A stretch of 64,000 nucleotides of DNA from Vicinamibacterales bacterium (GCA_050748045.1 JBOGIW010000612.1:14573-78572); one strand, 5' to 3'. Positions 11,793 through 61,417 are shown, counted from the first letter of the stretch. Made by a program: numbers and translations. The notes: generated by a model from the letters alone, not told the origin.

Positions 11793-11812
11793 TCGTCCAG
11801 GAGATGACCGCC

Positions 11813-12382: not shown

Positions 12383-12386
12383 GGCG

Positions 12387-13157: not shown

Positions 13158-13187
13158 CCATCGCCCGAGGCCGTCCGGGAGCGGCAC

Positions 13188-33970: not shown

Positions 33971-33975
33971 TCCCG

Positions 33976-35322: not shown

Positions 35323-35459
35323 ATCTCCTTTCGTCCGGACAGCCGATGGCGGCCTGGCCCGCAACCGGCTACGCTTCTCGACCACGGCGGATTCTTCCGC
35401 CGGGCCTTCCTCGAGCTTCCGACATGTCTGGCGGAAGCCCGTTCATCGAAGGTGAGCCG

Positions 35460-35765
35460 ATGCTTGATTGGGAAATGCTGATGCTGCTCGATGAGCGGGA
35501 GGACGAAGACGAGGCGACGCGATACGAACGCCGCGCGTTCCGGCAGGAGCTGCAGTGGAGCGTGTCGCCGCTCGTTTTCGCGGCCATCCTTCTCGCCCAC
35601 GGCGGCGCCGCGCTTGCCCGCCTGCTCTCGTCGCGAGCGCGGCGCGTGTGGACGGCCGTCCGAGGATCCGCGCGTCGGCGCTCCTTCGCCGCCGACACGA
35701 GCCCGTCACGAGAGCCGCTCGCACACGTCCACGCCGATGTGAGCTCCCCGATCGGCCGGCTCTGA
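35460..35765 (+). CDS. Small hypothetical protein (101 aa): acidic N-terminus, central hydrophobic segment, Arg-rich C-terminus; candidate scaffold or accessory peptide of the LanB-like enzyme
   Basis: MLDWEMLMLLDEREDEDEATRYERRAFRQELQWSVSPLVFAAILLAHGGAALARLL SSRARRVW... Third-codon positions are strongly G/C, as in real genes here. AAGGTGAG lies 5 nt upstream. The ORF ends 30 nt before the LanB-like gene. In-frame ATG 35424 is an alternative start. Confidence 0.45.
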   Translation: MLDWEMLMLLDEREDEDEATRYERRAFRQELQWSVSPLVFAAILLAHGGAALARLLSSRARRVWTAVRGSARRRSFAADTSPSREPLAHVHADVSSPIGRL

Positions 35766-35794: not shown

Positions 35795-38359
35795 ATGGCT
35801 GTTGATCGCGCAGCGTTCGTCGCCGATGCGCCACTCGACGCGGCACGCGAGCGGACCACCTCCGCGCCGCTGCACGTGTGGGAACACGAACGGCCGCTGC
35901 CGGGCGGCGACTGGGTCATCTGGCGTCCGACGGTCCTTCGCGGCACCGGCTTCCCGGTGTCGACCATGGCCGGTCTGGCGGGGATGCAAGCGCCATCGGC
36001 CGCGGACGAGTACTCCGACACTCGGGCCGACGTGATCCGTTTGCGCCGGCTCGCACTTGCGCAGATCGGCCAGGATCTGCGGGCGTGTCCTCCGAGCGCC
36101 CGCGCCGCGCTCCGTGCCAGGCGGCGTCGTATTCGTCAGGGGAGAATCGCGCGCGACGCCACGACTCACATCGAACGGGCGCTGGCATCCGCGACGGAGG
36201 CGCGCGTCGCGGCGCACGCTCGGTTGATGGAGGTGTACCGGGCGGAGACGCAGCTCATCGACGCGCGTCTTGCCGGGATCCTGGCCGACCCCCGCTTTCG
36301 CGAAGCAGTGCGGTGGCAAAATCCGCGCGCGCTCTCGCTGATCGATCGCAGGTTTCAAGCGCCGGCAGGCGCACGCGCCGACCGTCGCGCCGCAGGCGAT
36401 CTCGTCGCGATGCTCATTCAGCGCTACGCGCTCAAGAACGACAGCATCGGGTTCTTTGGACCGGTGGGGTGGGGCTCCCTTTCCGAGCAGGAGATGACGG
36501 TCGACATCTCGCCGGGTGCCGGCTTGCTCGCCCGCCGCGCGGTGTACTTCGAAGGGTGGTGCATCGACGCGCTCGCCGACGCGCTCGACGCGCATCCATC
36601 GGTCAGGTGCTGGACCGCGCCCCGTCTCGCCGGCGGCGTCTGGCAGGGAGAGAACGGCGTCGTGCACGTGCCTCTGGTTGGGCAGGTGGCCGTATCGGAA
36701 GGCGAGCGCCGTGTCCTGGCGTTGTGCGACGGGGAGCGCTCCGCGCGGGAGATCGCCGACGTCGTGCTCCGCCACCCTGAATCGGATCTGCGTTCCGAGG
36801 ACGACGTGTTTGCCGCGCTTCGTGCTCTCGTCGACAGACGGGTGCTCGTCTGGAGACTGGACGTCGCTCCTCAACTTCATCCCGACCACGAGCTCCGCAG
36901 GCGTCTCCATCGCATCGGCGATCCCCGGTTGCGCCAGGAGTGCTTCGCCGCGCTCGACGCGCTGGTCGAAGCGCGCGACGCGGTTGCGCGCGCCTCAGGC
37001 GATCCCGACGCACTCGACGAGAGGCTCACCGCGCTGAACACGACGTTTACGGGTCTCACAGGTCGCGCGCCGACGCGCCGCGTCGGACAGATGTATGCCG
37101 GCCGCACGCTGGTATACGAAGACTGCCGCCGTGCCGGCCGGGTCACCCTCGGCGCTGCATTCCTCGCGCGGCTCGGTCCGCCTCTCACGCTTGTCCTCGA
37201 GAGCGCCCGATGGGTGGCGGCGGAGCTCGCACGTGGATTCCGGGTGCAGATGCGGCAGTGTTATGCCGCGCTCGCGCGTGAACGGCGGGATGCGGTCGAC
37301 GCGCACGAGTTCTATACACGAGTCACGCAGATCCCGCTCGACGAACGGATGGCGCGCATTCGCGACGTGGAACGGCGATTCCGTGAGCGGTGGCAGTTCG
37401 CGCTCGGCGTGGACGGAGAGCCGCGCCGAGTGAGCCGATCGGTGGACCAGATCGCGCTCCGCGCCCGCGAGGCCTTCCTCTCGCGCTCGCCGCTATGGAG
37501 CAGGGTGAGGTTCCTCAGTCCGGACGTGCTGGTGGCCGCCGATGGCCCGGAAGCATTCCGCCGTGGCGACTTTCACTGCGTGCTCGGCGAGATCCACAGC
37601 GGCAACGGACTCCTCTGGTCCGCGCTGGCTTCGCAGCATCCCGATCCGCAGGAGCTCGCGGACGCGGTCGAGCGCGATGCGCGCGACGTCACGCCTATCG
37701 TGACCCAGGTCCTCAAGAGCGACTGGTCGGCCCGGCTGAACGTCGCGGCGCGTCCCCCGTGCGGCTGGCGGTACGAGTTTCACGACGATCGACCGAGCCA
37801 GCCCGGTTGCCGACCGATGCCGGCGGCAATGCTCGTTCCATCGGATGACGGCCTCACGGTGACGATGCGGACGCGCGACGGCAACCACGAGTTCGACGCG
37901 ATCGAGTTGTTCGGTCTGCCGCTGTGCTGGGAGGTGGACAGCGTCCTCAAGCAATACCTCCCGGACGCACCTCACGTGCCCCGCGTGACGATCGGCGCCT
38001 TGACTATCGCGCGCGAGCGTTGGTGCGCCACCCGCGACGAGCTGCCGTTCGTCACCGAGCCCGACCGTGCGGCGCGCTTCGCTGCGCTGCGCGCGTGGGC
38101 GCGCGGCCTCGGGCTCCCGCGACGCGTGTTCTACAAGTTCCCGCGCGAGCGCAAGCCGTGTTATCTGGACTTCGACAGCCCGCTGTACAGCGATCTCTTC
38201 CTGAAAGGCGTGCGCAGCCTCGAAGAGGGCATCGCGGTTCGCCTCGACGAGATGTTCCCGGGAATCGCCGAGACATGGCTCGCAGACGGCACCGGCGACC
38301 GGTACACCAGCGAGTTCCGGTTCGCCACTCGACTGGCGAGTCCCGGGTGCCTGGCATGA
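35795..38359 (+). CDS. Small LanB-like protein: lantibiotic-dehydratase N-terminal (glutamylation / aminoacyl-tRNA-using) domain only, no elimination domain (PEARL-like)
   Basis: 854 aa. WVIWRPTVLRGTGFP, ADPRFREAVRWQNPRAL and QRYALKNDSIGFFGPVGWG resemble the conserved 'dp.f.eAl..aSp.L' and '..Y..R...R.TPFGLFAG' blocks of LanB N-terminal domains. The length fits the ~800-aa N-domain. No SpaB_C-like C-terminal region follows. ATGA overlap with the next gene. Confidence 0.6.
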   Translation: MAVDRAAFVADAPLDAARERTTSAPLHVWEHERPLPGGDWVIWRPTVLRGTGFPVSTMAGLAGMQAPSAADEYSDTRADVIRLRRLALAQIGQDLRACPPSARAALRARRRRIRQGRIARDATTHIERALASATEARVAAHARLMEVYRAETQLIDARLAGILADPRFREAVRWQNPRALSLIDRRFQAPAGARADRRAAGDLVAMLIQRYALKNDSIGFFGPVGWGSLSEQEMTVDISPGAGLLARRAVYFEGWCIDALADALDAHPSVRCWTAPRLAGGVWQGENGVVHVPLVGQVAVSEGERRVLALCDGERSAREIADVVLRHPESDLRSEDDVFAALRALVDRRVLVWRLDVAPQLHPDHELRRRLHRIGDPRLRQECFAALDALVEARDAVARASGDPDALDERLTALNTTFTGLTGRAPTRRVGQMYAGRTLVYEDCRRAGRVTLGAAFLARLGPPLTLVLESARWVAAELARGFRVQMRQCYAALARERRDAVDAHEFYTRVTQIPLDERMARIRDVERRFRERWQFALGVDGEPRRVSRSVDQIALRAREAFLSRSPLWSRVRFLSPDVLVAADGPEAFRRGDFHCVLGEIHSGNGLLWSALASQHPDPQELADAVERDARDVTPIVTQVLKSDWSARLNVAARPPCGWRYEFHDDRPSQPGCRPMPAAMLVPSDDGLTVTMRTRDGNHEFDAIELFGLPLCWEVDSVLKQYLPDAPHVPRVTIGALTIARERWCATRDELPFVTEPDRAARFAALRAWARGLGLPRRVFYKFPRERKPCYLDFDSPLYSDLFLKGVRSLEEGIAVRLDEMFPGIAETWLADGTGDRYTSEFRFATRLASPGCLA

Positions 38360-40137
38360 CCGTCACCAATCGCTTCGAAGCCCGGGCCGCGGCGTCTCCG
38401 GAGGCCGTTGCGCTGATCGCCAACGATCGGACGTGCACGTATCGCGCCCTCAACGCGCGGGCCAATCGGCTGGCGTGGCATCTCCGCGAGCGCGGCGTCG
38501 GACCGGAGACGATTGTCGGCATCTGCATCCCACGAAGCATCGATTTCGTCGTGGCGCTGCTCGCGGTCGCGAAAGCCGGGGGTGCGTACCTCGCCATCGA
38601 CGTCGATCATCCACGCCAGCGAGCCGAGTGGATGCTGCGCGACACCGGCGCGCGTCTTCTCCTGGCGACGGCCGACACCCGCGGACTGGTCTGCGCGGCG
38701 CCCGTGATCGTGCTGACCGAGCTCGATGAGGTCCTGGACCATCAGCGCCACGACAATCCGGCCTCGCCTGCCAGCCCCGATGGCCTCTTCAAGGTCGTTT
38801 ATACGTCGGGCAGTACAGGTCGACCCAAAGGCGTGCTGGTGCCGATGCGGGCCGTCCTGCACCGACTCGATGCGATGGCGGCCCGCTTCCCGTTCGTCAA
38901 CGGCGATGTTGCGCTGCTCCATCGATCGTCGATGATCGCCGGATCGTCGTGGGATGCGCTCGGCCCGCTCATCGCCGGCGTGCCGACGCTCGTGATGCCC
39001 ACGTTCGACCCGATGGATGCCGCCGTGTGGGAGCTGGTTGCGAGGACGCGTGTCTCGCATCTCGCCGCCGGACCATCCTTGTGGCACCTCATCCTGACCA
39101 TGGCGGAGCGGTCGGCCGTCCGCTGGGATGCGCTGCGCATGGTAATCGTCGGCGGCGAGCGTGCCAGCCGCAAGCTCGTGACACGTTTCGCTCGCGCCTT
39201 CCCGCACGCGTCTCTCGTCAACATCTATGGGCTGACCGAGAGCATCTATCCGTGCGGCTGCGACGCAACGCTCACCGCCGCCTGCGGATCGTACGTTCCG
39301 GCGGGAGGGCCGTTCCCGGACGTGTCCGTCGCCGTCGTCGACGACGCCGGACGCGCGCAGCCCCATGGTACGTCCGGACATATCTGCCTCGCAGGCCCGG
39401 GCACGGCACGCGGATATCTGCACGCGCCGAGCCTCACCGCAGAGAAATTCGCCCCTAATCCCTCGGGCGCCACGCCCGGCGAGCGCATGTTCAGGACCGG
39501 TGACCGGGGCCGGTGGCGCGCCGACGGGGTGCTCGAGGTGCTCGGCCGCCGCGACAATCAGGTGAAGGTGCGCGGAACACGCGTCGAGCTCGCCGAAGTA
39601 GAAGCGGTGCTGTCGGCGTCGCCCGGCGTCAGCGAAGCGGCCGTCACGAGCCACACGGCGGACGAGGGCGAATCGCGCATCGTCGGATACGTCGTGCCCG
39701 AGCCTGGCGTGTCGATTTCCATCCGCGAGCTGCGCGCGTCACTTGCACGCGCGCTGCCGGCGGGGGCCGTTCCCGCGGCGTTCGTCGTGCTCGCAGAGAT
39801 GCCGATCACCTCACAGGGCAAGGTCGATCGCGCGCGGCTGCCGGCGCCGGCGACCACGGGGGCCGACGACAGACACAGCGGCCCGGCGCCGCGCACGAAC
39901 ACCGAACGGGCCATTGCCCGGATCTGGCGGGAGCTGCTGAACGTACCTCAGGTCGGTGTGCACGACGACTTCATCAGTCTCGGCGGCACGTCGCTGGCCG
40001 GCATGTACGTCGCGTCGCGGATCCGCCAGGAGTTCGGAATCAGTTTGTCGTTTGATACGGTGCTCGGCGCACCGGGACTCGACGCGCTCGCCTCGTATGT
40101 CGACGCCGCGCAGGAGCGGAAGGCCCACGGCGCATGA
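38356..40137 (+). CDS. Stand-alone A-T didomain with a non-amino-acid (carboxylic/aryl/keto acid-type) adenylation pocket
   Basis: YTSGSTGRPKG, FRTGDRGRW, KVRGTRVELAEVE, QGKVDRARLP. T: FISLGGTSL. The position equivalent to Asp235 (FDxS) reads IAGSSWD, so Ala replaces Asp. The A5 core reads YGLTES instead of YGPTE. Confidence 0.85.
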   Translation: MTVTNRFEARAAASPEAVALIANDRTCTYRALNARANRLAWHLRERGVGPETIVGICIPRSIDFVVALLAVAKAGGAYLAIDVDHPRQRAEWMLRDTGARLLLATADTRGLVCAAPVIVLTELDEVLDHQRHDNPASPASPDGLFKVVYTSGSTGRPKGVLVPMRAVLHRLDAMAARFPFVNGDVALLHRSSMIAGSSWDALGPLIAGVPTLVMPTFDPMDAAVWELVARTRVSHLAAGPSLWHLILTMAERSAVRWDALRMVIVGGERASRKLVTRFARAFPHASLVNIYGLTESIYPCGCDATLTAACGSYVPAGGPFPDVSVAVVDDAGRAQPHGTSGHICLAGPGTARGYLHAPSLTAEKFAPNPSGATPGERMFRTGDRGRWRADGVLEVLGRRDNQVKVRGTRVELAEVEAVLSASPGVSEAAVTSHTADEGESRIVGYVVPEPGVSISIRELRASLARALPAGAVPAAFVVLAEMPITSQGKVDRARLPAPATTGADDRHSGPAPRTNTERAIARIWRELLNVPQVGVHDDFISLGGTSLAGMYVASRIRQEFGISLSFDTVLGAPGLDALASYVDAAQERKAHGA

Positions 40138-41015
40138 TCGCGAATCCCTCTGCTGAACATCAGGAGGCCGCGTGCGCGCCGGCTGTTCTTTCCGGCGCCG
40201 GCGAGCTGACCTGTCGCGATCTCAGGAGCCACCAGGACCTGGAGAGCGCGGCCGCGCTGGAAACCGAGATCTGGGGGTACACGGATCGTCTCGACGCGCT
40301 GCCACCCTCGCTTCTCTCGGCCTCGATCCGCGTCGGGGGCCTCCTGCTGGGCGCGTTCGACGCGGATCGCCTCGTGGGATTCGTCTACTCGTTTCCCGCG
40401 ATTCGGAACGGCGAGACGATCCACTGGTCGCATCGGCTTGGCGTCGCAGAAGCATACAGGAGCACGGGCGTCGGGCACTGGTTGAAGCTGGAGCAGCGGA
40501 GGCGTGTGGCCGCGCTCGGTCTCAACCTCGTTGCCTGGACCTACGACCCTATGCTGGCGGCGAACGCGCACCTGAACCTGACGAAATTGCGCGCCACGGC
40601 GGCGCGATACGAAACTGACGTGTACGGCACCTCGAGCAGCCCGCTGCATGCCGGAATCCCGACGGATCGGCTCGTCGTGGACTGGCGGATCGGCGGCGCG
40701 ACCGGCGAACCCGACGCGGATCGAAGTCGTCGGCGCCACACCGCCATCTGCGACGCCCCGGTCGTGAACAGGACGCGACGCGGTCGCGTCTGGCCTGCAT
40801 GCGCCGCCCTCGAGCTCTCGTGTCCGTCAGATACCGTGCGCGTCGAGATTCCACTCGGGTTCACCCAGATGCTGCGCCGCGATCGCGGGCTGGCGCTGCA
40901 GTGGCGACTGGCGACGCGCGCGGTCTTCACGACGTATTTCGGTGCCGGATTCACTGCGGTCGACTTCGCCGTCTGTCGCGACCGCGGGCTCGGATGGTAC
41001 CTGTTGACGCGCTGA
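40134..41015 (+). CDS. GNAT-fold acyltransferase-like protein (COG3375-like), function unknown
   Basis: LETEIWGY...PSLLSASIRVGGLLLGAFD..LVGFVYSFPA...SHRLGVAEAYRSTGVGHWLKLEQRR.ALGLNLVAWTYDPMLAANAHLNLTKL resembles the 'predicted GNAT superfamily acetyltransferase' family. ATGA overlap with the previous gene. Confidence 0.45.
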   Translation: MIANPSAEHQEAACAPAVLSGAGELTCRDLRSHQDLESAAALETEIWGYTDRLDALPPSLLSASIRVGGLLLGAFDADRLVGFVYSFPAIRNGETIHWSHRLGVAEAYRSTGVGHWLKLEQRRRVAALGLNLVAWTYDPMLAANAHLNLTKLRATAARYETDVYGTSSSPLHAGIPTDRLVVDWRIGGATGEPDADRSRRRHTAICDAPVVNRTRRGRVWPACAALELSCPSDTVRVEIPLGFTQMLRRDRGLALQWRLATRAVFTTYFGAGFTAVDFAVCRDRGLGWYLLTR

Positions 41016-41053: not shown

Positions 41054-43867
41054 ATGACCGTGCCGCCGCAGGACGGGCGTGAGCCCGAGCGAGAGTGTGA
41101 CATCGCCGTGATCGGCATGGCCGGGAGGTTTCCCGGCGCAAGGGACGTCGACGAGCTGTGGCGCAATCTCTCGAACGGCGTCGAGTCGATTTCGGAACTG
41201 ACGTCGTCGGACCTCGTCCAGGCCGGCGTGCCGCGAGCGGACCTCGAGCATCCCAACTATGTCCGCGCGCGCGGGCTGCTGGCGGACGCCGAGTGCTTCG
41301 ACGCGGCGTTCTTCGGAGTCACGCCGGCGGAAGCCACGGTCATGGACCCGCAGCACCGCCTGCTGCTGGAGTGTGCATGGGCGGCACTGGAGCACGCGGG
41401 GTACGCCCCGGACAGCGTCCCAGGGGTCGTCGGCGTCTACGCCGGCGCGAGTGCCAGCGATCACCGCGCCAGGCTGGGATCTCGCCCCGAGCTATGCGAT
41501 CTCCTCGGCGGCTACCTGGTGCAGGTTGGCAACGACGTCGATTTCCTCACGACGCGGATCTCGTACAAGCTGAACCTCAAGGGACCGAGCATCGCGGTGC
41601 AGACATCGTGCTCGACCTCCCTCGTCGTCGTCCATCTCGCATGCCAGGCCCTGTTGAACGGCGAGTGCGACCTGGCGCTGGCGGGCGGCGTGAACGTATC
41701 GACCCTGCGGCGCATCGGCTATCTCTATCAGGAGGCCGGGATTCGATCGCCCGACGGACACTGCCGGCCGTTCGACGCAGGCGCGAAGGGAATGGTCAGC
41801 GGTGCAGGGCTCGGCCTGGTGGTGATCAAGCCGTTGCGCGCCGCGCGGCGCGACCGCGATTTCGTTCACGCGGTCATCAAGGGTTCCGCCGTGAACAATG
41901 ACGGCCGCGCAAAGGTGAGCTACACGGCGCCGAGCGTGGACGGGCAGGCCACGGCCATTCGCGAGGCGCTGTCATGGGCCGCCGTCGATCCCGCGACGAT
42001 CGGCTATGTCGAAGCGCACGGCACCGGCACGCATCTCGGCGATCCCATCGAGATCGCGGCGCTCACCGACGTCTTTCGCGCCTCCACCTCGCGGCGCTCG
42101 AAGTGCCCCGTCGGGTCGATCAAGGCGAACATCGGCCACCTGTCGGCCGCGGCGGGCGTCGCCGGCCTCATCAAGACGATTCTGATCCTGAAACATGGAT
42201 GCGTCCCCCCGAACCCGTACTTCCGGGCGCCGAATCCGGAAGCGCGGCTCGACGAGAGTCCCTTCTACGTCAACCAGGGGGCGGTGGACTGGCCGGCGAC
42301 GGCCCATCCGCGCCGCGCCCTGGTCAGCGCCCTCGGCATTGGCGGCACGAATGCGCACTTGGTGCTCGAGGAAGCACCGGTGCACGCGCCGACAACCCCC
42401 TCGAACACCTGGCACGTCCTGACTTTGTCTGCCCGCACGGCATCGGCTCTCGATGCGATGACCCAGAACCTCTCGGGGCACCTCACCTCCGCGGCTGCGC
42501 CCTCGTTGCCGGATCTCGCCCACACGCTCCACGCTGGTCGGACCGGCTTTTCCTACCGCCGCGCGATCACATGCCGCGACATCGACGGTGCCGTGCGGGC
42601 GCTTCGCGGTGAGGAGGGCGCACGTGCATGGACGGGCGTCGCCTCGGAGGAGCCTCCGCCCGCCGCATTCATGTTTCCTGGCGTCGGCACGCAGTACGTG
42701 GGCATGGCGGCGGAGCTGTACCGCGAAGATGCGCTGTTCCGACAGGAGCTGGATCGATGTTTCGACGTCCTCGCTCGTCACTCGGACGTGAACTTCCGGG
42801 ACGTGCTCTACCGGCCTGACTCCCAGACCGATCCCACGACGATCGATCGCGCTGTCGTCGTGAATCCGCTCGTGTTCGCCGTCGCCTATGGCGTCGCGAT
42901 CCGCTGGACGCAGTGCGGAATTCGTCCGGCCGCGCTCATCGGCCACAGCCTGGGCGAGTACGCAGCCGCCACGCTGGCGGGCGTGTTCACGCTCGAGCAT
43001 GCGCTCGAGCTCATGTTGACGCGCGGCCGCCTCATCGAGCGCGTCCCTCCTGGCGCGATGCTCGCGGTACCTCTCTCCGAGGAGGAGACGCTTCCGTATC
43101 TCAACGACGACGTCTCGCTTGCATCCGTGAACGCGCCGACGGCGTGCATCCTGTCGGGGGCGCCTGCGGCAATCGCCGCAGTCGAGGCCGCACTGCACCA
43201 GCGTGGCACCGCGTGCCGGGCGCTGCGCTTCCCTCACGCTCCTCATTCCGCGATGATGGACCCCATCCTTGGCGAGTTCGCCGACCACGTTCGCGCGGCG
43301 GCACCGAAAGCTCCACGAATTCCACTGGTGTCGAGCGTCACCGGCACGTGGATCACGCCCGCGCAGGCTGAGGACCCGCACTACTGGGCCTCGCACCTTC
43401 GCCGCACGGTACGATTCGCCGAAGGACTTCGGTGCGTGTTGAGCAATCCGCGGCAGCTCCTCATCGAGATGGGGCCCGGCCGCAGCCTGAGCCGGCTCGT
43501 GAAGCGGCAGGGGGCGGGCGCGGCCAAACGACAGGTCATCCCCACGCTTTGCGCACCCGACGATGACACACCCGATCGGGAGCTGTTCGCGCGCGGGCTC
43601 GCCCGCTGCTGGGCGGCTGGCGTGCGGGTCGAGTGGACGCACTACACCGGCGCCGAGCCGCGGTACCGCGTGCCGCTGCCGACGTATCCATTCGAGCGAA
43701 CGCGGTATGCGCTCGAGACCAGCACGGGCGCGCCCTCGCCAAGCGATGCGAGCGGCCATACCGCGCGCACGGCCGACGATCGAGGGGCGCCTGGGTCGGA
43801 TCTGGAACGCGTCATCACCGACCAGCTTCGTCTGATGTCGGCGCAGCTCGACGCACTCCAGGGCTGA
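41054..43867 (+). CDS. Type I PKS fragment: KS-AT only (no ACP, KR, DH)
   Basis: KS: IAVIGMAGRFPGA, VQTSCSTSLVVVHLAC, EAHGTGTHLGDPIE, KANIGHLSAAAG. AT: GHSLGEYAAATLAG, FPHAPHSAMM (HAFH-like, suggesting malonyl). C-terminal tail GSDLERVITDQLRLMSAQLDALQG. AGGAG 8 nt upstream. Confidence 0.9.
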   Translation: MTVPPQDGREPERECDIAVIGMAGRFPGARDVDELWRNLSNGVESISELTSSDLVQAGVPRADLEHPNYVRARGLLADAECFDAAFFGVTPAEATVMDPQHRLLLECAWAALEHAGYAPDSVPGVVGVYAGASASDHRARLGSRPELCDLLGGYLVQVGNDVDFLTTRISYKLNLKGPSIAVQTSCSTSLVVVHLACQALLNGECDLALAGGVNVSTLRRIGYLYQEAGIRSPDGHCRPFDAGAKGMVSGAGLGLVVIKPLRAARRDRDFVHAVIKGSAVNNDGRAKVSYTAPSVDGQATAIREALSWAAVDPATIGYVEAHGTGTHLGDPIEIAALTDVFRASTSRRSKCPVGSIKANIGHLSAAAGVAGLIKTILILKHGCVPPNPYFRAPNPEARLDESPFYVNQGAVDWPATAHPRRALVSALGIGGTNAHLVLEEAPVHAPTTPSNTWHVLTLSARTASALDAMTQNLSGHLTSAAAPSLPDLAHTLHAGRTGFSYRRAITCRDIDGAVRALRGEEGARAWTGVASEEPPPAAFMFPGVGTQYVGMAAELYREDALFRQELDRCFDVLARHSDVNFRDVLYRPDSQTDPTTIDRAVVVNPLVFAVAYGVAIRWTQCGIRPAALIGHSLGEYAAATLAGVFTLEHALELMLTRGRLIERVPPGAMLAVPLSEEETLPYLNDDVSLASVNAPTACILSGAPAAIAAVEAALHQRGTACRALRFPHAPHSAMMDPILGEFADHVRAAAPKAPRIPLVSSVTGTWITPAQAEDPHYWASHLRRTVRFAEGLRCVLSNPRQLLIEMGPGRSLSRLVKRQGAGAAKRQVIPTLCAPDDDTPDRELFARGLARCWAAGVRVEWTHYTGAEPRYRVPLPTYPFERTRYALETSTGAPSPSDASGHTARTADDRGAPGSDLERVITDQLRLMSAQLDALQG

Positions 43868-43908: not shown

Positions 43909-45336
43909 ATGCCAGACAAGTTCGAAGACGAGTGCGGCGTCTTTGGCGTGTACAACCACCCCGGCGCCGTCTCGCTTACCACGATCGGCCTCCTGTCGCT
44001 TCAGCATCGCGGGCACGAAAGCGCCGGGGTGGCGTGCAGCCGCGATGGCGTGCTCCATTGCGTTCGCGCCAAAGGGTGGGTGTCCCACCTCGCCGACCGG
44101 CACCTCGGCGGCGTCAGCGGATCCGCCGCGATCGGGCACGTCAGATACTCGACGTGCGGCGACAGCTCGCTCGCCAACGCCCAGCCTCTCGTCGTGGCCA
44201 CGCGCGACGGACACCTCGCGCTCTGTCACAACGGAAACATTGTGAACGCGCACGACATACGGACGACACTGCGCGATTCGGGCGCGACCTTCGACGGCGA
44301 CGGCGACACCGAGGTCGTTGCGCGACTGCTCGCACGACGATGGTCGGAGCTTCCGGAGCACGAGGCGTTCCGCAAGACGTTCGAGATGGTGCGCGGCGCC
44401 TACTCGATCGTCGTCCTGACCAGCGATCGCATGTACGCTCTGCGCGATCCGCTGGGCATTCGTCCGCTGAGTCTCGGCCGCATCGGCGACGCAATCGTGA
44501 TCAGTTCGGAGACGTGCGGGTTCGATGCCATTGGCGCCACACACGTGCGCGACATTCGTCCAGGCGAGCTGCTCGTCGTCGGCCGCGCGGGCGTCCGCTC
44601 CTTCCAATTCCAGACTCCCGCGCCGCTCTCCGCGCAATGTGTGTTCGAGTTGATCTACTTCGCCCGGCCCGACAGCGTGACGTTCGGTCACAGCGTCGCG
44701 GCGGTGCGCATGGCGCTCGGCCGAAGGCTCGCCCAGGAGCAGCCAGCCGACGCCGACGTCGTCGTGCCGATTCCCGATTCCGGCCTCTATTGCGGTATCG
44801 GCTATGCCCGTGGCACCGGCATCGGATGCGAGCTGGCGCTCGTTCGCAACGCGCACGTCGGCCGAACCTTCATTCGGCCCGACGTAGCGGAACGGCGCGC
44901 CACCATCGCCGCCAAGTACAACGTGATTCGCGATCTCGTCGCAGGCCGGAGGGTGGCGCTGGTCGATGACTCGCTCGTCCGCGGCTCCACGTGCGAATCC
45001 ATCGTCGCACGAGTCCGAGAGGCCGGCGCGCGCGAGGTTCACGTGCGAATCGCGAGTCCGGAAACGATCGGACCGTGCTACTTCGGCGTCGACACACCCG
45101 ACGAGGGCGACCTCTTCGCAACCGGTCGATCGGTCGCGGAGATGGCGCGGCTCCTCGGAGCGGACTCTCTGGCCTTTCTCAGTCTGGATGGACTGCTCCG
45201 TGCGGTTGCCGGTGCCACCGGCGGCTACTGCTCGGGCTGCTATACCCGCCGATATCCGATCGATCCGGACGCATCGCCGCGGACGGCACGATCCGTGGCG
45301 GCGCCGGCCCGTCTGTATACGGCGTGCACGAGGTAA
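43909..45336 (+). CDS. purF: Amidophosphoribosyltransferase (glutamine PRPP amidotransferase), B. subtilis-type with propeptide and Fe-S Cys ligands
   Basis: MPDKFEDE|CGVFGV (propeptide plus catalytic Cys1), LQHRGHESAG, PRTase motif VALVDDSLVRGST, Cys ligands in GPCYFGVDTP and GYCSGCYT. Confidence 0.9.
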   Translation: MPDKFEDECGVFGVYNHPGAVSLTTIGLLSLQHRGHESAGVACSRDGVLHCVRAKGWVSHLADRHLGGVSGSAAIGHVRYSTCGDSSLANAQPLVVATRDGHLALCHNGNIVNAHDIRTTLRDSGATFDGDGDTEVVARLLARRWSELPEHEAFRKTFEMVRGAYSIVVLTSDRMYALRDPLGIRPLSLGRIGDAIVISSETCGFDAIGATHVRDIRPGELLVVGRAGVRSFQFQTPAPLSAQCVFELIYFARPDSVTFGHSVAAVRMALGRRLAQEQPADADVVVPIPDSGLYCGIGYARGTGIGCELALVRNAHVGRTFIRPDVAERRATIAAKYNVIRDLVAGRRVALVDDSLVRGSTCESIVARVREAGAREVHVRIASPETIGPCYFGVDTPDEGDLFATGRSVAEMARLLGADSLAFLSLDGLLRAVAGATGGYCSGCYTRRYPIDPDASPRTARSVAAPARLYTACTR

Positions 45337-45343
45337 GTCTCGA

Positions 45344-46600
45344 GTGATCGCGGCTCCAGACGACGTGACCGGCGATTGGATCGTCGTGATGACCTGCCAC
45401 GGCGCCAGCGACGTCATGCGCATGACGCTGCAGATGCACGGCGATCGCGCGACCGCGTGCCTTGGCGGCTGTGCTTTCGAAGGTCGCGCGAGCGGCTCGC
45501 GCCTGGAGCTTCGGACGCCGGATGGTGCAACACCCGCCGCTCGGATCAGCGGGACCTTCGAGCGGCACGCGTTGTCGGGAGAGTATGTCGTCGGCAAAAC
45601 GCGCTGGACCTGGTCGGCCACGCGACCCGCCGGACGTGCCGCAGGGGCGTCGCGGACGCACGTGTTCGCGCCCACAACCTTTCATCGGATGTTTTCCGGA
45701 TCGATCCCGCCCGCATTGCACATTCGGTGCGGCGACCGCGTGAAGACCTGGACGCTCGACTCGTCGGGGATCGATGCCGACGGAGCACGGCGATCGCGAC
45801 CCGGTAACCCTCAAACCGGCCCCTTCTACGTCGAGGGGGCCGTTCCCGGTGACACGCTGGCGGTGACCTTCACGCGCATGCGCTTGAACCGCGATACGGC
45901 AACGTCGCGACGGAGGATCTGGAAGGACGCGGTCACGGCGGCGTATATCGAGAGCCGGCGCCCGCTTGCCGATCCCGACAGCGCGTGGCTGCTCGACCGC
46001 GCGAAGGGAGTGGCGCGGCCGGCGCAGCCGACTCCCGCGCTCGCCGGATATGCGGTGCCGCTCCAGCCGATGCTCGGGTGCGTAGCCGTGGCGCCGCCGT
46101 TCGACATGGCGGTCACGTCGCAGCATCCCGGGACGTTCGGAGGCAACATCGACTATGCCGGCATCCGTGAAGGCGTGACGGTGTACCTGCCGGTGTTTCA
46201 GATCGGCGCGCTCCTGTTCATCGGAGACGGCCACGCGGCCCAAGGCGACGGCGAGGTCACCGTCAGCGCGCTCGAGACGTCGATGGACGTGGAGTTCGTC
46301 GTCGACGTGCTCCCAGGGCGAACGCTGGCGACACCGTGCGCCGAAGACGCCGAATGCCTGATGGCGATAGGAATCGAGCGATCGCTCACGAGGGCGCTGC
46401 AGAGCGCCACCACCGAAATGGCGCGCTGGCTCGAACGCGACTACGGGCTCGACCGCGAAGAGGCCGCGACGGTGCTAGGGACGGCGCTGCGCTATGACAT
46501 CGCGCAAGTCGTCAATCCCCATCCGAGCGTCGTGGCGAAGCTGCCCAAGGCGGTGATGGCCCGGGTCCGCAAACCGCCTGTCAACGGTGAAAGGCGATGA
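45344..46600 (+). CDS. Acetamidase/formamidase-family amidohydrolase
   Basis: NPQTGPFYVEGAVPGDTLAV, GTFGGNIDY, LFIGDGHAAQGDGEV. The N-terminal ~100 aa are unusual. The start is uncertain (GTG 45344, 8 nt after purF). The stop overlaps the next NRPS start (ATGA). Confidence 0.75.
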   Translation: MIAAPDDVTGDWIVVMTCHGASDVMRMTLQMHGDRATACLGGCAFEGRASGSRLELRTPDGATPAARISGTFERHALSGEYVVGKTRWTWSATRPAGRAAGASRTHVFAPTTFHRMFSGSIPPALHIRCGDRVKTWTLDSSGIDADGARRSRPGNPQTGPFYVEGAVPGDTLAVTFTRMRLNRDTATSRRRIWKDAVTAAYIESRRPLADPDSAWLLDRAKGVARPAQPTPALAGYAVPLQPMLGCVAVAPPFDMAVTSQHPGTFGGNIDYAGIREGVTVYLPVFQIGALLFIGDGHAAQGDGEVTVSALETSMDVEFVVDVLPGRTLATPCAEDAECLMAIGIERSLTRALQSATTEMARWLERDYGLDREEAATVLGTALRYDIAQVVNPHPSVVAKLPKAVMARVRKPPVNGERR

Positions 46601-49600: not shown

Positions 49601-49800
49601 AAGTGCTCGGCGTCGATCGTGTCGGCCTCGACGACGATTTCTTCGCCATCGGCGGCCACTCGCTCTCGGCGATGCGCGTGATCATGCGCTCGCGCGCGCA
49701 GCTGGGGATTCCGCTGTCGTTTCGAACCATGCTGGAGCACGGCACGGTGGCCGCCATCCTTCAGCAGGTCGCGAGCGCATCGGGGGAGGTCGCGCGATGA
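46597..49800 (+). CDS. NRPS module C-A-T (Gln-like code)
   Basis: C: LSYAQHALWV/HHIVWDGWS. A: YTSGSTGRPKA; code approx DAWQFGLIDK (the classical Gln code). T: FFAIGGHSL. Confidence 0.95.
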   Translation: MTMDASSDRPLLVRRPPQTPAPLSYAQHALWVAQQLHGPAAKYNVVTAWRLHGPVDRAALCRAINTIVERHESLRTRFDELDEEPVQIVCPAAPFDLSPEDLTGLDDVAQRRAVTQALDDEWAKPFDLRRAPLLRVRLLELGTVEHVLIQTAHHIVWDGWSRGVFARELSALYRAAHHEVPHGLAALEVQCADAAVWQRSRLTGPRLAHGLGYWNEQLANAPQELTLPSDRRRPAVRRQEGRALDVQLSPELIGAVTRFGQANRASLFTTLLAGFGALLARYTHACDIVVGTPVADRPDARLEPLIGLFTNELPIRMKIGPETTFRQLVNDVRETTLAAYRHKEVPFDRIVQELSPQRSRNAAPLFQVGFGLQDATSAALTLAGLDVEAWLRAERLRAKLDLEVQVLVDGDRARLYWLYDAELFGRARMEQMARHYRQLLDGLTADPDVPLHRLPIVSEEDRLALDGWQGAAHEIAPATIPELFEHQVDATPARIAVASGTESLSYADLDRLANAVAHRLRVCGVGPETIVAVCAERSPQLVAGLLAVLKAGGAYLPIDPAYPRDRIAFMLEDSGAAVVLAEPGTLERVVPGDRTIVNLDDYRCVTADQRHETRRLAHRATAANLAYVLYTSGSTGRPKAVMVSRGALANHMAWMNSHFPLDLHDRILQRTALSFDASVWEFYAPLLTGARLVLAPPESHPDGATLTRWMREEAITIVQMVPSLLRVLTEAPDLERCLSLRRVFCGGEPLTSELQQRVRARLPNVELHNLYGPTEATIDATWWPCASGTESEEPAIGRPVWNTRAYVVNAALQLAPAGVTGELCLAGAGLARGYLRRAALTAERFVPDPYCGRPGERMYRVGDLVRWRPDGALDFVARIDHQLKIRGLRIELGEIEAALRALPGVAQVVVVGREEEFAQARLVAYVVASTADVVTADTLRNRLRETLPDYMVPAAFVLLDALPLMPNGKIDRKALPAPEASAAGYRQPRTADERALCTIFAEVLGVDRVGLDDDFFAIGGHSLSAMRVIMRSRAQLGIPLSFRTMLEHGTVAAILQQVASASGEVAR

Positions 49801-54350: not shown

Positions 54351-54389
54351 CGCGCCCGTCGCAGCGCCCACGCTCCAGCGGGACCTCCT

Positions 54390-60374: not shown

Positions 60375-60552
60375 TGGGCGTACCTACACAACCGATCTGT
60401 TCTCAGTGTCGTTGACGGATTAGTGGCGAAGCGACGCCGATCGAGCGCGACAACTTACTGCCAAGTACGCGTCGAGCGGCGCGGCGCCGACCGCCGCGCG
60501 AGTCACGCGACCCTACGGCAGCAGTCAAGCGAACACGTCGCCAGACGGATGG

Positions 60553-60972: not shown

Positions 60973-61417
60973 ACGCCACCCCTCAAGTGACTTGACGCGA
61001 ACTCGCACGGCGCCGCACAAGCGCCGCTTTGAATTTCAGCGCGTACCAACAGAAATGCAGCGGCGTACAGCGCGAGAAGGCCGAGTGCGGCAATCGCGGA
61101 TCGGCGAATCACGTCCAACGCGTCGTCGCCATCGAGCCAGGGCTGGTGTAATCGCAGCGGCTGCCGCGCGGGCCGCGTCCAGCCGTACAATCGCATTCAA
61201 CCGATTCGATGCGACGCTGGACGCGTCCATCGTGCACGCGAGGTCCACTCCGGCGTCACGCCGGCAGCGGCAGCAGCTCCGGCAGGAGTTTCCATGGAGC
61301 AAGTGAGCATCAGGTCTCACAGCCATCGATCGTCCGTCTCGGACGCGTGATCGCCAGGAGTGGTTTGGCTCAGCTCCATGCAGAGCGCCTGAGGCACCTT
61401 TCCGGTGCCGTGCGCGA

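What the first reader, a model, noticed from the sequence alone, without database searches (positions are those of the whole stretch)
35795..38359. Small LanB-like (PEARL-like) protein, elimination domain absent, translationally coupled to an NRPS A-T gene and a GNAT-like gene
This 854-aa protein carries blocks that resemble the N-terminal glutamyl-tRNA-dependent domain of lantibiotic dehydratases. It ends where the elimination (SpaB_C) domain would begin, and I recognise no separate elimination-domain gene in the window.

Such 'small LanBs' include peptide aminoacyl-tRNA ligases, which extend the C-terminus of a scaffold peptide so that amino-acid-derived metabolites can be built on it. Here the gene overlaps (ATGA) a carboxylic-acid-type A-T didomain, which in turn overlaps a GNAT-like gene and is followed by KS-AT.

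A tRNA-dependent LanB-type enzyme wired directly into thiotemplate loading genes is not a combination I can assign to a known pathway. It could act on the GG peptide, on the small protein encoded just upstream, or on a T-domain-bound Ser/Thr. A Ser-specific module exists at 23.9-26.5 kb.
Basis: partly seen in the sequence, partly recalled or inferred. Interest (0 to 1): 0.9.

Follow-up and report, generated by a model that had tools for sequence, protein, structure and literature searches.

The report
tRNA-dependent amide ligase in NRPS cluster
The gene is real and encodes a LanB-like enzyme without an elimination domain, but it belongs to a class described in 2024 (SnaE-type PEARLs in NRPS/PKS clusters, predicted to add an amino acid from tRNA to a free carboxylate), so it is a new, uncharacterised member and not a new kind of system.

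Summary
Window 35795-38359 (+) encodes an 854-aa protein with a significant PF04738 hit. Its confident model matches the glutamylation-only enzyme TbtB over its full length. No elimination domain (PF14028) was found in the protein or in any predicted protein of the window scanned. ATGA overlaps link it to an A-T gene and that gene to a GNAT-fold gene; KS-AT follows.

The claim that the combination cannot be assigned to a known pathway is outdated. Yu & van der Donk (2024) reported about 2000 NRPS/PKS clusters with such enzymes and characterised one, SnaE. SnaE is a PEARL-like enzyme that adds Thr to a free carboxylate of a nonribosomal intermediate. The focal protein carries the PEARL-type residues and is closest to SnaE in the published signature blocks. 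Its near relatives include fusions to carrier (T) domains.

This cluster differs from the SnaE precedent. No ureido-forming C domain (EHHxxHDG) is present. The coupled A domain lacks Asp235 (code AGWAIGIYPK), so it probably loads a non-amino acid. The acceptor carboxylate is therefore unknown. I infer it sits on the starter unit loaded by the coupled A-T.

The source is an uncultured Vicinamibacterales (Acidobacteriota) MAG. Verdict: new member of a known kind, moderate interest.

The parts
35795..38359 (+). SnaE-type PEARL (small LanB; glutamylation-type domain only), 854 aa
   Evidence: PF04738, E=2.4e-22. Model pLDDT 88.8. Foldseek best hit TbtB, E=3e-27, full length. PEARL residues Q209/R210/K214/N215, D577, E599, R740, F779, E840 and R842 are invariant or nearly so in 37 homologues. 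Closest to SnaE in the published signature blocks.
36680..36880 (+). RRE-like (PqqD-like) winged-helix segment inside the PEARL (about aa 296-362; 'VLALCDGERSAREIA...')
   Evidence: Weak profile match to PqqD 5SXY (E=0.04) at profile positions 274-340. C311 and G313 are nearly invariant. RREs occur in PEARLs and may be vestigial (PMC11962472).
38356..40137 (+). Stand-alone A-T loading didomain without Asp235 (code AGWAIGIYPK), translationally coupled to the PEARL (ATGA)
   Evidence: Pfam AMP-binding, AMP-binding_C and PP-binding. Alignment to LgrA puts 'MIAGSSW' at the FDxS (A4) motif. Code extraction, with the L001 homologue reading VGWAIGVYPK. Overlap confirmed.
40134..41015 (+). GNAT-fold protein (N-terminal about 170 aa) with an extra C-terminal domain, translationally coupled to A-T (ATGA)
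   Evidence: Weak Acetyltransf_7 hit. Model pLDDT 87.3. Foldseek hits to many GNAT N-acetyltransferases, E about 1e-8. Belongs to a widespread 'predicted GNAT' family, 45-50% identical. Overlap confirmed.
41054..43867 (+). KS-AT (no ACP) PKS protein
   Evidence: Pfam ketoacyl-synt, Ketoacyl-synt_C, KS-AT linker and Acyl_transf_1. Start inferred from the 940-aa homologue in the syntenic locus.
35460..35765 (+). Small conserved single-pass membrane protein directly upstream of the PEARL
   Evidence: Identical protein in an NCBI Vicinamibacterales MAG, and a 62%-identical homologue P0122 that JGI names 'uncharacterized membrane protein'. Same position in syntenic loci L086/L087 and in the P0002 and P0003 loci. 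GC3 0.81. C-terminus not conserved. The TM helix is read from the hydrophobic stretch in both sequences, not predicted by a tool.
43909..45336 (+). PurF-like class-II glutamine amidotransferase, conserved after KS-AT in the syntenic cluster
   Evidence: GATase_6/7 plus weak Pribosyltran. Coding frame from GC3. Same gene in the P0003 locus.
45344..46600 (+). FmdA/AmdA-family amidase-like protein
   Evidence: PF03069, E=2.9e-19. Also present in the P0003 locus. The start codon is approximate.
20589..26579 (+). T-AmT(class III)-C-A(Ser code, FkbM MT)-T. Its N-terminal T is the likely carrier for the ACP-less KS-AT.
   Evidence: Pfam. T motifs. Code DVWHISLID. Conserved in the P0003 locus.
13188..20564 (+). 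Terminating NRPS C-A-T-C-A-T-TE
   Evidence: Pfam. Codes DAFTLGVTFK and DLTKVGEVGK.
46597..57605 (+). Three further NRPS genes: C-A-T (Gln code), C-A-T-C/E (Asp code), C-A-T
   Evidence: Pfam. Codes DAWQFGLIDK, DLTKVGHVGK and DGFVMALIWK. None of their C domains has the EHHxxHDG motif.

Best explanation
The gene encodes an NRPS/PKS-associated peptide aminoacyl-tRNA ligase (PEARL) of the SnaE type. It is not a dehydratase.

**Proposed mechanism.**
1. The enzyme uses ATP to phosphorylate a free carboxylate on a nonribosomal substrate, giving an acyl phosphate.
2. The alpha-amine of an aminoacyl-tRNA attacks the acyl phosphate and forms an amide.
3. The tRNA ester is then hydrolysed.

The net result is one amino acid added at a position the thiotemplate line cannot reach.

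**Proposed acceptor in this cluster.** I propose that the acceptor is the starter unit handled by the translationally coupled A-T didomain. That A domain lacks Asp235, so it should load a non-alpha-amino carboxylic acid, for example a keto or dicarboxylic acid, or an N-blocked acid. The PEARL would act on that unit while it is tethered to the T domain, or just before it is loaded. KS-AT, the T-AmT-C-A-T protein and the terminating NRPS would then extend the chain in the normal direction.

**Shown.**
- Fold and family.
- Absence of an elimination domain.
- Conservation of the PEARL-type residues.
- Gene coupling.
- Synteny with related clusters.
- Carrier-domain fusions in close homologues.
- Absence of a ureido-forming C domain.
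- Absence of Asp235 in the coupled A domain.

**Inferred.**
- Use of ATP and aminoacyl-tRNA, by homology to TglB and SnaE.
- That the substrate is nonribosomal.
- The identity of the acceptor.
- Which amino acid is added.
For: **Family.** PF04738 scores above its cut-off and there is no PF14028. The confident model superposes on TbtB over its whole length.

**Residues.**
- The block 'FREAVRWQNP...QRYALKNDSIGFF' and the C-terminal 'YTSEFRF' match the PEARL/SnaE blocks of Fig. S12 in PMC11212132. There the R and K are proposed to bind the tRNA 5'-phosphate, and the E-x-R is needed for ATP-dependent phosphorylation.
- R842 corresponds to TglB R803, which is Leu in split LanBs.
- D577 and E599 have the same spacing as TglB D542 and E564, and both are invariant.
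- R740 and F779 align with the adenine-binding R743 and F783 of TbtB.
- The signature blocks score highest against SnaE: 27/57 identities, score 95.5, against at most 73.5 for scaffold-peptide PEARLs and at most 46.5 for dehydratases.

**Context.**
- 76 of 112 homologue loci have NRPS/PKS domains within 7 kb.
- The close homologues P0006 and P0012 are T-PEARL fusions and P0016 is a C-T-PEARL fusion.
- In L040 and L071 the PEARL gene directly precedes an A-T-C(EHHxxHDG) NRPS. This is the architecture of the threopeptin NRPS SnaA, where the unit on the loading A-T carries the acceptor carboxylate (PMC11212132). In the sna cluster itself snaE is not adjacent to snaA.
- The focal PEARL likewise directly precedes a loading A-T, with an ATGA overlap.
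- The run small TM protein, PEARL, A-T, GNAT-like, KS-AT is conserved in the P0003 locus at 55% identity. The upstream part is conserved in the P0002 and L086 loci.

**A domain.** Asp235 is replaced by Ala here and by Val in L001. An aliphatic residue at this position marks A domains that take non-amino acids such as 2-keto acids (PMC13643306, PMC10949194).
Against: - No biochemical data exist for this protein or for any close relative. SnaE's own use of ATP and tRNA is inferred in the literature, not shown in vitro.
- The one characterised precedent depends on a ureido-forming C domain to create the free carboxylate. None of the seven C-type domains here has EHHxxHDG, so the source of the acceptor carboxylate is conjecture.
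- The A-domain pocket (G236, W239, A278, I299, G301, I322, Y330, P331) has no basic residue that would suggest a dicarboxylate.
- Gene adjacency and translational coupling do not prove a shared substrate. In the sna cluster the PEARL gene is not adjacent to the loading module.
- The equivalence of D577 to TglB D542 rests only on spacing and invariance. A sequence-profile attempt to align this region to TbtB failed.
- Most A domains that directly follow PEARL genes in other loci do have Asp235, so the loader-as-acceptor rule is not general.
Confidence: 0.6

Rival explanations
1. The chemistry is the same (PEARL-type, ATP- and aminoacyl-tRNA-dependent amide formation on a nonribosomal substrate), but the acceptor is not the starter unit. 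[quoted passage not shown] The step would be a late tailoring reaction.
For: - Classical PEARLs extend a C-terminal carboxylate.
- The cluster ends in a TE.
- It contains an Asp-coded module (DLTKVGHVGK) and a TauD-family hydroxylase.
- For SnaE the timing, on-line or after release, is unresolved.
Against: - This reading does not explain the conserved translational coupling to the Asp235-less loading A-T.
- It does not explain the T-domain fusions in close relatives.
- If the TE macrocyclises the product, there is no free C-terminus.
Confidence: 0.2
2. The enzyme is a carrier-protein-directed PEARL. It works on the phosphopantetheinyl T domain itself. It either hands an aminoacyl or acyl-aminoacyl group from tRNA to the T-domain thiol, acting as an A-domain surrogate or re-loading step, or it uses the aminoacyl-S-T as the amine nucleophile in place of aminoacyl-tRNA.
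For: - T-PEARL and C-T-PEARL fusions occur among the 16 closest homologues.
- A T domain abuts the PEARL upstream in 11 of 99 assessable loci, and a C domain abuts it downstream in 11 of 88.
- Streptomyces and Kitasatospora loci (L045, L070, L080) show C-T modules without an A domain directly upstream of the PEARL and a C domain directly downstream.
Against: - No precedent exists for this chemistry.
- The focal protein is not fused to a T domain, and its partner module has its own A domain.
- The ATP-site residues and the residues proposed to bind the tRNA 5'-phosphate are all conserved, which fits the standard PEARL cycle.
Confidence: 0.1
3. The enzyme is a classical scaffold-peptide PEARL. 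It extends the C-terminus of a ribosomal peptide encoded in the window, either the GG-leader peptide at 11813-11998 or the small protein at 35460-35765. The appended residue is then elaborated or passed to the NRPS.
For: - A genuine double-glycine leader peptide (…LTEADLARVVGG|LDWSQMLLP) lies in the window beside a C39-peptidase ABC exporter.
- A small conserved ORF always sits just upstream of the PEARL in the syntenic loci.
- The PEARL keeps an RRE-like segment.
Against: - The small protein is a membrane protein with a conserved N-terminus and predicted TM helix but a non-conserved C-terminus. PEARLs modify the C-terminus.
- The GG peptide is 24 kb away, and no relatives were found, so co-occurrence could not be tested.
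- The family as a whole sits in NRPS clusters without precursor peptides (PMC11212132).
- The RRE of PEARLs appears dispensable (PMC11962472).
- The signature blocks are closest to SnaE, not to scaffold-peptide PEARLs.
Confidence: 0.07
4. The protein is the glutamylation half of a split LanB dehydratase. It transfers Glu from Glu-tRNA to a Ser or Thr hydroxyl, for example on the Ser module's T-bound residue or on a peptide. An unrecognised partner would eliminate the glutamate, or the glutamyl ester would persist.
For: - The Pfam family is PF04738, and the best structural match is the glutamylating TbtB.
- A Ser-coded module is present.
Against: - No PF14028 elimination protein is found in any predicted protein of the window that was scanned.
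- The protein carries the PEARL-only Arg (R842; Leu in split LanBs) and the invariant D577 (Tyr in split LanBs, per PMC11117183), plus the 'QR...KND' block in place of the dehydratase 'R...R/K-(T/S)-x-P' block.
- The Ser module carries an FkbM-type methyltransferase, which suggests O-methylation and not dehydration.
Confidence: 0.05

Closest known systems
SnaE (threopeptin pathway, Stackebrandtia nassauensis; Yu & van der Donk, ACS Cent Sci 2024, PMC11212132)
   Same: - A stand-alone LanB-like protein of about 850 aa (SnaE is 845 aa) with no elimination domain.
- Encoded in a hybrid NRPS-PKS cluster together with a KS-AT.
- No precursor peptide is required.
- Same 'FREAV.WQNP...QRY..KND(T/S)IGFF' block and same C-terminal 'YTSE(L/F)RF' block.
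- Of all the reference sequences compared, the focal protein scores highest against SnaE.
   Different: - In the sna cluster the acceptor carboxylate is made by a ureido-forming C domain (EHHxxHDG) in an A-T-Curea-A-T NRPS. The focal cluster has no such C domain.
- The focal PEARL is translationally coupled to an Asp235-less A-T and a GNAT-fold protein.
- The phylum differs (Acidobacteriota against Actinomycetota), and the assembly line is much larger.
- Whole-sequence identity to SnaE could not be measured because only two published blocks were available.
Scaffold-peptide PEARLs (TglB, AmmB1-4, BhaB1-7)
   Same: - The same fold and the same catalytic residues: the tRNA-phosphate-binding R/K, the E-x-R, and the Asp/Glu pair with ATP-grasp-like spacing.
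- No elimination domain.
- An RRE-like insert is retained.
   Different: - Those enzymes extend the C-terminus, or a vinylogous carboxylate, of a ribosomal scaffold peptide encoded beside them.
- Here no convincing scaffold peptide exists. The neighbours are thiotemplate enzymes, and close homologues are fused to T domains.
Split LanB glutamylation proteins of thiopeptide/goadsporin pathways (TbtB, GodF)
   Same: - The best structural matches, and similar in length (about 860 aa).
- The glutamylation-type domain is encoded alone.
- The adenine-pocket Arg, Phe and Glu are conserved.
   Different: - Those proteins work with a separately encoded elimination protein (PF14028) on RiPP precursors and do not use ATP.
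- The focal protein has the PEARL-only Arg and Asp, and no elimination partner nearby.
Full-length class I lantibiotic dehydratases (NisB, MibB, MadB)
   Same: The N-terminal domain is homologous (PF04738; Foldseek E of 1e-17 to 1e-21).
   Different: - There is no C-terminal elimination domain, no LanC, and no Ser/Thr/Cys-rich core peptide.
- The target-normalised TM-score is only 0.46-0.50, because about 300 residues of those proteins have no counterpart here.

Membership tests
LanB glutamylation-domain superfamily (PF04738) | Significant match to the Lant_dehydr_N profile | tested here: met
   E=2.4e-22, 79.3 bits against a cut-off of 28. Most listed homologues carry PF04738.
LanB glutamylation-domain superfamily (PF04738) | Fold similarity to solved glutamylation domains | tested here: met
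   Foldseek: TbtB E=3e-27, TM 0.61-0.67; GodF, MibB, MadB and NisB all at probability 1.00. The model has pLDDT 88.8.
LanB glutamylation-domain superfamily (PF04738) | [quoted passage not shown] | tested here: met
   R210 and K214 lie in 'QRYALK' and are invariant in 37 homologues. They align with the block shown in Fig. S12 of PMC11212132.
Full-length class I lantibiotic dehydratase (LanB) | C-terminal glutamate-elimination domain (PF14028) in the same protein | tested here: not met
   No PF14028 hit. The protein ends with the glutamylation-type domain: its C-terminal end aligns with the C-terminal end of TbtB. The target-normalised TM-score to NisB and MibB is below 0.5.
Full-length class I lantibiotic dehydratase (LanB) | Co-encoded LanA precursor with a Ser/Thr/Cys-rich core, and a LanC cyclase | tested here: not met
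   No LanC-like family appears in any predicted protein scanned. The only leader-type peptide has the core LDWSQMLLP, with one Ser and no Cys.
Split LanB (thiopeptide/goadsporin type) | Separate elimination-domain protein (PF14028) encoded nearby | tested here: not met
   Pfam scans of every predicted gene product between 0.3 and 60.4 kb, plus 62999-63775, gave no PF14028. The short ORFs at 60.4-63.0 kb were not scanned.
Split LanB (thiopeptide/goadsporin type) | Tyr and Leu at the positions of TglB D542 and R803 (no ATP-phosphorylation residues) | tested here: not met
   R842 occupies the position of TbtB L853 (block alignment). D577 is invariant where the PEARL Asp is expected.
PEARL (peptide aminoacyl-tRNA ligase) | Glutamylation-like domain with no elimination domain in the protein or the neighbourhood | tested here: met
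PEARL (peptide aminoacyl-tRNA ligase) | E-x-R motif near the C-terminus (TglB E801/R803), required for ATP-dependent phosphorylation | tested here: met
   E840-F-R842 in 'YTSEFRF'. Both residues are invariant in 37 homologues. They align with the published block.
PEARL (peptide aminoacyl-tRNA ligase) | PEARL-only Asp (TglB D542) and the Glu 22 residues later (TglB E564) | tested here: inconclusive
   D577 and E599 are invariant. Their spacing is 22 residues, and they lie about 260 residues before the E-x-R, as in TglB. No TglB sequence or residue-level structural alignment was available, and the profile search of this segment against the PDB failed.
PEARL (peptide aminoacyl-tRNA ligase) | Q-R-x3-K-N-(D/E)-(T/S) block | tested here: met
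   Q209 R210 ... K214 N215 D216 S217.
PEARL (peptide aminoacyl-tRNA ligase) | Ribosomal scaffold peptide, encoded in the cluster, whose C-terminus is extended | tested here: not met
   The upstream small protein has a variable C-terminus and a predicted TM helix. The GG peptide is distant and no relatives were found. This counts against the classical subtype only, not against PEARL chemistry.
PEARL (peptide aminoacyl-tRNA ligase) | ATP- and aminoacyl-tRNA-dependent amide bond formation | not testable with these tools
   Requires an enzyme assay.
SnaE-type NRPS/PKS-associated PEARL | Encoded within an NRPS/PKS cluster that lacks a RiPP precursor requirement | tested here: met
   The gene is flanked on both sides by NRPS/PKS genes and overlaps an A-T gene. 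76 of 112 homologue loci have NRPS/PKS domains within 7 kb.
SnaE-type NRPS/PKS-associated PEARL | Closer in sequence to SnaE than to scaffold-peptide PEARLs or dehydratases | tested here: met
   Two published blocks only. Block 1 scores 95.5 for SnaE against 73.5 for AmmB2 and 59 for TglB. Block 2 scores 48 against 37 for BhaB7.
SnaE-type NRPS/PKS-associated PEARL | Acceptor carboxylate generated by a ureido-forming C domain (EHHxxHDG) | tested here: not met
   The motifs are THHIVVDG, LHHIVADA, FHHLAMDG, AHHIVWDG, LHHIVCDG, AHHLIVDG and THHLVLDG. This feature belongs to the threopeptin pathway, not necessarily to the enzyme class. Only 2 of the 88 loci surveyed had it.

The most novel reading that the evidence does not exclude
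The PEARL acts on the non-amino-acid starter unit while that unit is thioester-bound to the T domain of its co-translated A-T partner. It caps a distal carboxylate with an amino acid taken from aminoacyl-tRNA. This would be a 'backwards' chain extension at the initiation module that needs no ureido chain reversal. It would also show that carrier-protein-tethered intermediates are direct PEARL substrates, which the T-PEARL and C-T-PEARL fusions in close relatives hint at. That would join ribosomal tRNA pools to thiotemplate assembly on the carrier itself.
Probability: 0.25. Interest if true: 0.6.

Novelty: new member of a known kind. Interest (0 to 1): 0.4.

Why it matters
Only one NRPS-associated PEARL, SnaE, has a known role. 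That role depends on a ureido chain reversal which this cluster lacks.

A second case with a different source of acceptor carboxylate would test a published claim: that these enzymes are general 'off-line' amide-bond formers for positions a thiotemplate line cannot reach. It could also show whether they work on carrier-bound intermediates. This case comes from an uncultured Acidobacteriota lineage and includes a keto-acid-type loader and a GNAT-fold partner.

In practice, cluster-prediction tools would label this gene a lantibiotic dehydratase or call the region a lanthipeptide hybrid, and would miss one residue of the product. The finding does not open a new category.

Tried and rejected
1. 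**Single-sequence phmmer of the PEARL against the PDB** found nothing. A 37-sequence profile was needed.
2. **ORF 43932-44969**, which had no Pfam hit, was considered as a hidden elimination domain. Its translation is Arg-rich off-frame noise. GC3 analysis shows the real gene is in another frame, and that gene is a PurF-like amidotransferase. ORFs 10853-11998 and 12273-13550(-) are likewise artefacts. They lie over a TauD gene, the GG peptide, an MbtH gene and a type II thioesterase (TEII) gene.
3. **My first hand assignment of the A-domain code** took 'FDPMD' as the A4 motif, which would keep Asp235. That was wrong. Alignment to LgrA places A4 at 'MIAGSSW'.
4. **The small upstream protein as a PEARL scaffold** was rejected, because its C-terminus is not conserved and it carries a predicted TM helix.
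5. **The RRE-like segment as evidence for a peptide substrate** was rejected. PEARL RREs appear dispensable, and the segment is conserved across the whole NRPS-associated family.
6. **A metagenome scan with the GG peptide** found no relatives. The same scan with the PEARL found nothing closer than 41%. The genome scan also gave at most 41% identity, so the source lineage is poorly sampled.
7. **Aligning the D577 region to TbtB by profile** failed.
8. **The GNAT-fold protein as a Fem-like tRNA-dependent transferase** found no support. The top 50 structural matches were generic single-domain GNAT acetyltransferases.
9. **No tRNA gene** is present in the window.
10. **Literature searches** found no second characterised NRPS-associated PEARL.

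Full report

Yes. An ORF runs from ATG 35795 to TGA 38359 on the + strand and encodes 854 aa. Pfam finds PF04738 (Lant_dehydr_N) at E=2.4e-22 and 79.3 bits, against a gathering cut-off of 28, and finds nothing else. NCBIfam finds nothing.

An AlphaFold2 model built on 37 homologues is confident (mean pLDDT 88.8, pTM 0.88). Foldseek against the PDB returns these hits:
- TbtB, the glutamylation-only 'split LanB' of thiomuracin biosynthesis, is best (E=3e-27, TM 0.61-0.67 over the whole length).
- GodF comes next.
- The full-length dehydratases MibB, MadB and NisB follow, with target-normalised TM-scores of only 0.46-0.50.

A sequence profile of the family aligns both the N-terminal and the extreme C-terminal parts of the protein to the corresponding ends of TbtB. 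The protein is therefore a complete glutamylation-type domain and stops there.

I scanned every predicted gene product of the window from 0.3 to 60.4 kb, plus 62999-63775, against Pfam after correcting several off-frame ORFs by GC3 analysis. None has the elimination domain PF14028 or a LanC-like domain. The short ORFs at 60.4-63.0 kb, outside the cluster, were not scanned. The two ATGA overlaps are present: PEARL with A-T at 38356-38359, and A-T with the GNAT-like gene at 40134-40137.

**2. Where does it come from, and what surrounds it?**

The small protein just upstream and the GNAT-like protein both have identical entries in NCBI from a 'MAG: Vicinamibacterales bacterium' on a 78.7-kb contig. 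The source is therefore an uncultured Acidobacteriota genome.

The window is one large hybrid NRPS-PKS cluster. In gene order:

| Coordinates | Product |
|---|---|
| 278-1531 | sigma-54 activator |
| 1557-9546 | OEP / HlyD / C39-peptidase ABC / ABC export genes |
| 9559-10722 | periplasmic binding protein |
| 10782-11792 | TauD-family dioxygenase |
| 11813-11998 | 61-aa double-glycine-leader peptide |
| 12143-12382 | MbtH-like protein |
| 12387-13157 | type II thioesterase |
| 13188-20564 | C-A-T-C-A-T-TE |
| 20589-26579 | T-AmT-C-A(FkbM MT)-T |
| 26600-28591 | radical SAM protein |
| 28619-29770 | HPPD/HmaS-like dioxygenase |
| 29767-32634 | A(MT)-T with an Hpg-like code |
| 32648-33970 | class I/II aminotransferase |
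| 33967-35322 | amidohydrolase |
| 35460-35765 | small membrane protein |
| 35795-38359 | the focal gene |
| 38356-40137 | A-T |
| 40134-41015 | GNAT-fold protein |
| 41054-43867 | KS-AT without an ACP |
| 43909-45336 | PurF-like amidotransferase |
| about 45344-46600 | FmdA-like amidase |
| 46597-57605 | three more NRPS genes |
| 57930-60374 (-) | MacB-type exporter |

**3. Which kind of LanB-like enzyme is it?**

The literature separates glutamyl-tRNA-dependent dehydratases from PEARLs by a few residues.
- They also carry an additional set required for ATP-dependent phosphorylation of the acceptor carboxylate: TglB D542, E801 and R803. In split LanBs D542 and R803 are replaced by Tyr and Leu (PMC11212132 Fig. 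S12; PMC11117183).

The focal protein compares as follows:
- It reads 'FREAVRWQNP...LIQRYALKNDSIGFF', where SnaE reads 'FREAVAWQNP...YAQRYFTKNDTIGFF'.
- It ends with 'DRYTSEFRFATR', where SnaE has 'EMYTSELRFVAV'.
- Q209, R210, K214, N215, E840 and R842 are invariant in 37 homologues.
- D577 and E599 are also invariant. Their spacing matches TglB D542 and E564 exactly (22 residues, about 260 residues before the E-x-R). I take them as the equivalents, but this step rests on spacing only, because a profile alignment of that segment to TbtB failed.
- R740 and F779 align with the adenine-binding R743 and F783 of TbtB.

Scored against the ten reference sequences printed in Fig. S12, both blocks of the focal protein are closest to SnaE. 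The residue evidence therefore points to PEARL chemistry: an acyl phosphate followed by attack of an aminoacyl-tRNA amine. It does not point to Ser/Thr glutamylation.

**4. Is the combination with thiotemplate genes unknown?**

No. Yu & van der Donk (ACS Cent Sci 2024, PMC11212132) state that about two thousand NRPS/PKS clusters encode proteins annotated as lantibiotic dehydratases. [quoted passage not shown]

They characterised one such cluster from Stackebrandtia nassauensis. SnaE is required for adding Thr to the free carboxylate left after a ureido-forming C domain (signature EHHxxHDG) reverses the chain. [quoted passage not shown] Further searches found no second characterised member.

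My own survey agrees with theirs.
- The family is abundant. At least 550 relatives occur in one-per-species genomes, mainly Acidobacteriota, Chloroflexota, Myxococcota and Actinomycetota.
- In 76 of 112 loci, NRPS/PKS domains lie within 7 kb.
- Among the 16 closest homologues, two are T-PEARL fusions and one is a C-T-PEARL fusion, each with a plausible phosphopantetheine-attachment Ser.

**5. How this case differs from the precedent.**

None of the seven C-type domains in the window has EHHxxHDG, so no ureido chain reversal creates the acceptor carboxylate here.

The A domain coupled to the PEARL lacks Asp235. Alignment to LgrA puts 'MIAGSSW' at the FDxS motif, which gives the code AGWAIGIYPK. 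The homologue in the syntenic locus L001 reads VGWAIGVYPK. An aliphatic residue at position 235 is the published mark of A domains that take 2-keto acids or other non-amino acids (PMC13643306, PMC10949194). The other A domains of the window have ordinary codes: Ser, Asn, Gln, Asp, Hpg-like and Val/Ile-like.

The cassette is conserved. The run small membrane protein, PEARL, A-T, GNAT-like, KS-AT, PurF-like amidotransferase recurs at 55% PEARL identity in the P0003 contig. Its upstream part recurs in the P0002 and L086/L087 loci.

Two more distant loci, L040 and L071, have the PEARL gene directly followed by an A-T-C(EHHxxHDG) NRPS. That is the architecture of the threopeptin NRPS SnaA, in which the unit on the loading A-T is the one that ends with the free carboxylate. 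In the sna cluster itself, snaE is not adjacent to snaA.

**6. Most likely mechanism.**

I commit to the following. [quoted passage not shown] In this cluster the acceptor most probably belongs to the starter unit handled by the co-translated, Asp235-less A-T. It would be either a distal carboxylate of a T-tethered acid, or a free acid that becomes an N-acyl amino acid and is then loaded (about 0.3 for this level).

The chain would then pass to KS-AT, which lacks its own ACP and probably uses the N-terminal T of the T-AmT-C-A-T protein. After that come beta-amination, Ser(OMe) incorporation and the terminating C-A-T-C-A-T-TE. This ordering is inference from domain logic only.

Weaknesses:
- There is no biochemistry for this protein.
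- The A-domain pocket shows no basic residue that would suggest a dicarboxylate.
- Coupling is not proof of a shared substrate.
- In most other loci the A domain after the PEARL does have Asp235.

**7. Rivals.**

- (a) The same chemistry acts on the released product's C-terminus or on the Asp side chain (0.2).
- (b) A carrier-directed role, in which the enzyme transfers a group from tRNA to the T-domain thiol or uses aminoacyl-S-T as the nucleophile (0.1). The fusions suggest this, as do A-less C-T modules that abut PEARL genes in Streptomyces and Kitasatospora loci.
- (c) A classical scaffold-peptide PEARL acting on the GG peptide or on the small upstream protein (0.07). The small protein's C-terminus is not conserved and it carries a predicted TM helix. 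The GG peptide is 24 kb away with its own exporter, and no relatives could be found. The RRE-like insert is a family-wide and probably vestigial feature.
- (d) A dehydratase half-reaction (0.05). The PEARL-only residues and the lack of any elimination domain contradict it.

**8. Verdict.**

The novelty claim does not hold, because this is a member of the SnaE-type class published in 2024.

What remains of interest:
- The acceptor must arise differently from the only known example.
- The enzyme sits in a conserved cassette with a keto-acid-type loader and a GNAT-fold protein.
- It comes from an unsampled acidobacterial lineage.

Novelty: new member of a known kind. Interest: 0.4.

Noticed in passing
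window 11813-11998 (+): A 61-aa peptide with a near-canonical double-glycine leader (…ELTEADLARVVGG, which fits LSxxELxxIxGG) and a 9-aa core, LDWSQMLLP. It lies between a TauD-family gene and an MbtH gene, downstream of OEP/HlyD/C39-peptidase-ABC/ABC export genes (1557-9546). GC3 is 0.87. It looks like an exported signalling or bacteriocin-like peptide embedded in an NRPS cluster. A metagenome scan found no relatives.
   Followed up: partly
window 35460-35765 (+) versus 11972-11998 (+): The conserved extreme N-terminus of the small membrane protein upstream of the PEARL reads M-LDWEMLMLL (homologue P0122: M-LDWEILMLL). It resembles the GG-peptide core LDWSQMLLP: 4 of 9 residues identical without gaps, including LDW. 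This could be chance. It is unexplained.
   Followed up: no
loci L002 (P0016), L003 (P0012), L083 (P0006), L045, L070, L080, L066, L077, L079: PEARL homologues are fused to T domains (T-PEARL, C-T-PEARL), or are sandwiched between a C-T module that lacks an A domain and a downstream C domain. Cultured Streptomyces and Kitasatospora genomes are among them. This suggests an uncharacterised in-line use of PEARLs within NRPS assembly lines.
   Followed up: partly
loci L040 and L071 (about 12.5-15 kb in each): The PEARL gene is directly followed by an A-T-C-A-T NRPS whose first C domain has the ureido signature EHH(A/L)IHDG. These are probable threopeptin-like chain-reversal systems, in a Parvularcula MAG and a gammaproteobacterial MAG.
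   Followed up: partly
window 43932-44969 (+), 10853-11998 (+), 12273-13550 (-), 34686-35765 (+, N-terminal part): These long ORFs are off-frame artefacts of the 68% GC content, with Arg-rich translations. GC3 analysis shows the real genes lie in other frames: a PurF-like amidotransferase (43909-45336), TauD (10782-11792), the GG peptide, MbtH and a type II thioesterase.
   Followed up: yes
window 20589-26579 (+) and 41054-43867 (+): The KS-AT protein has no ACP. The T-AmT(class III)-C-A-T protein begins with an orphan T domain followed by an aminotransferase domain. Together they resemble the split form of a mycosubtilin/iturin-type beta-amination module. The Ser-coded A domain carries an FkbM-type methyltransferase insert, so the residue is probably O-methyl-Ser.
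   Followed up: no
window 40134-41015 (+): The GNAT-fold protein belongs to a very widespread family of about 275 aa, 'predicted GNAT superfamily acetyltransferase' (45-50% identity, with a second copy in the same MAG). It has an invariant W-S-H ... N-A-H-L-N ... T-D-R set of residues and an uncharacterised C-terminal domain. The family seems to have no solved structure or assigned function.
   Followed up: partly
window 58000-64000: GC content falls from about 68% to about 62% after the MacB-type exporter gene. This probably marks the downstream edge of the cluster.
   Followed up: no
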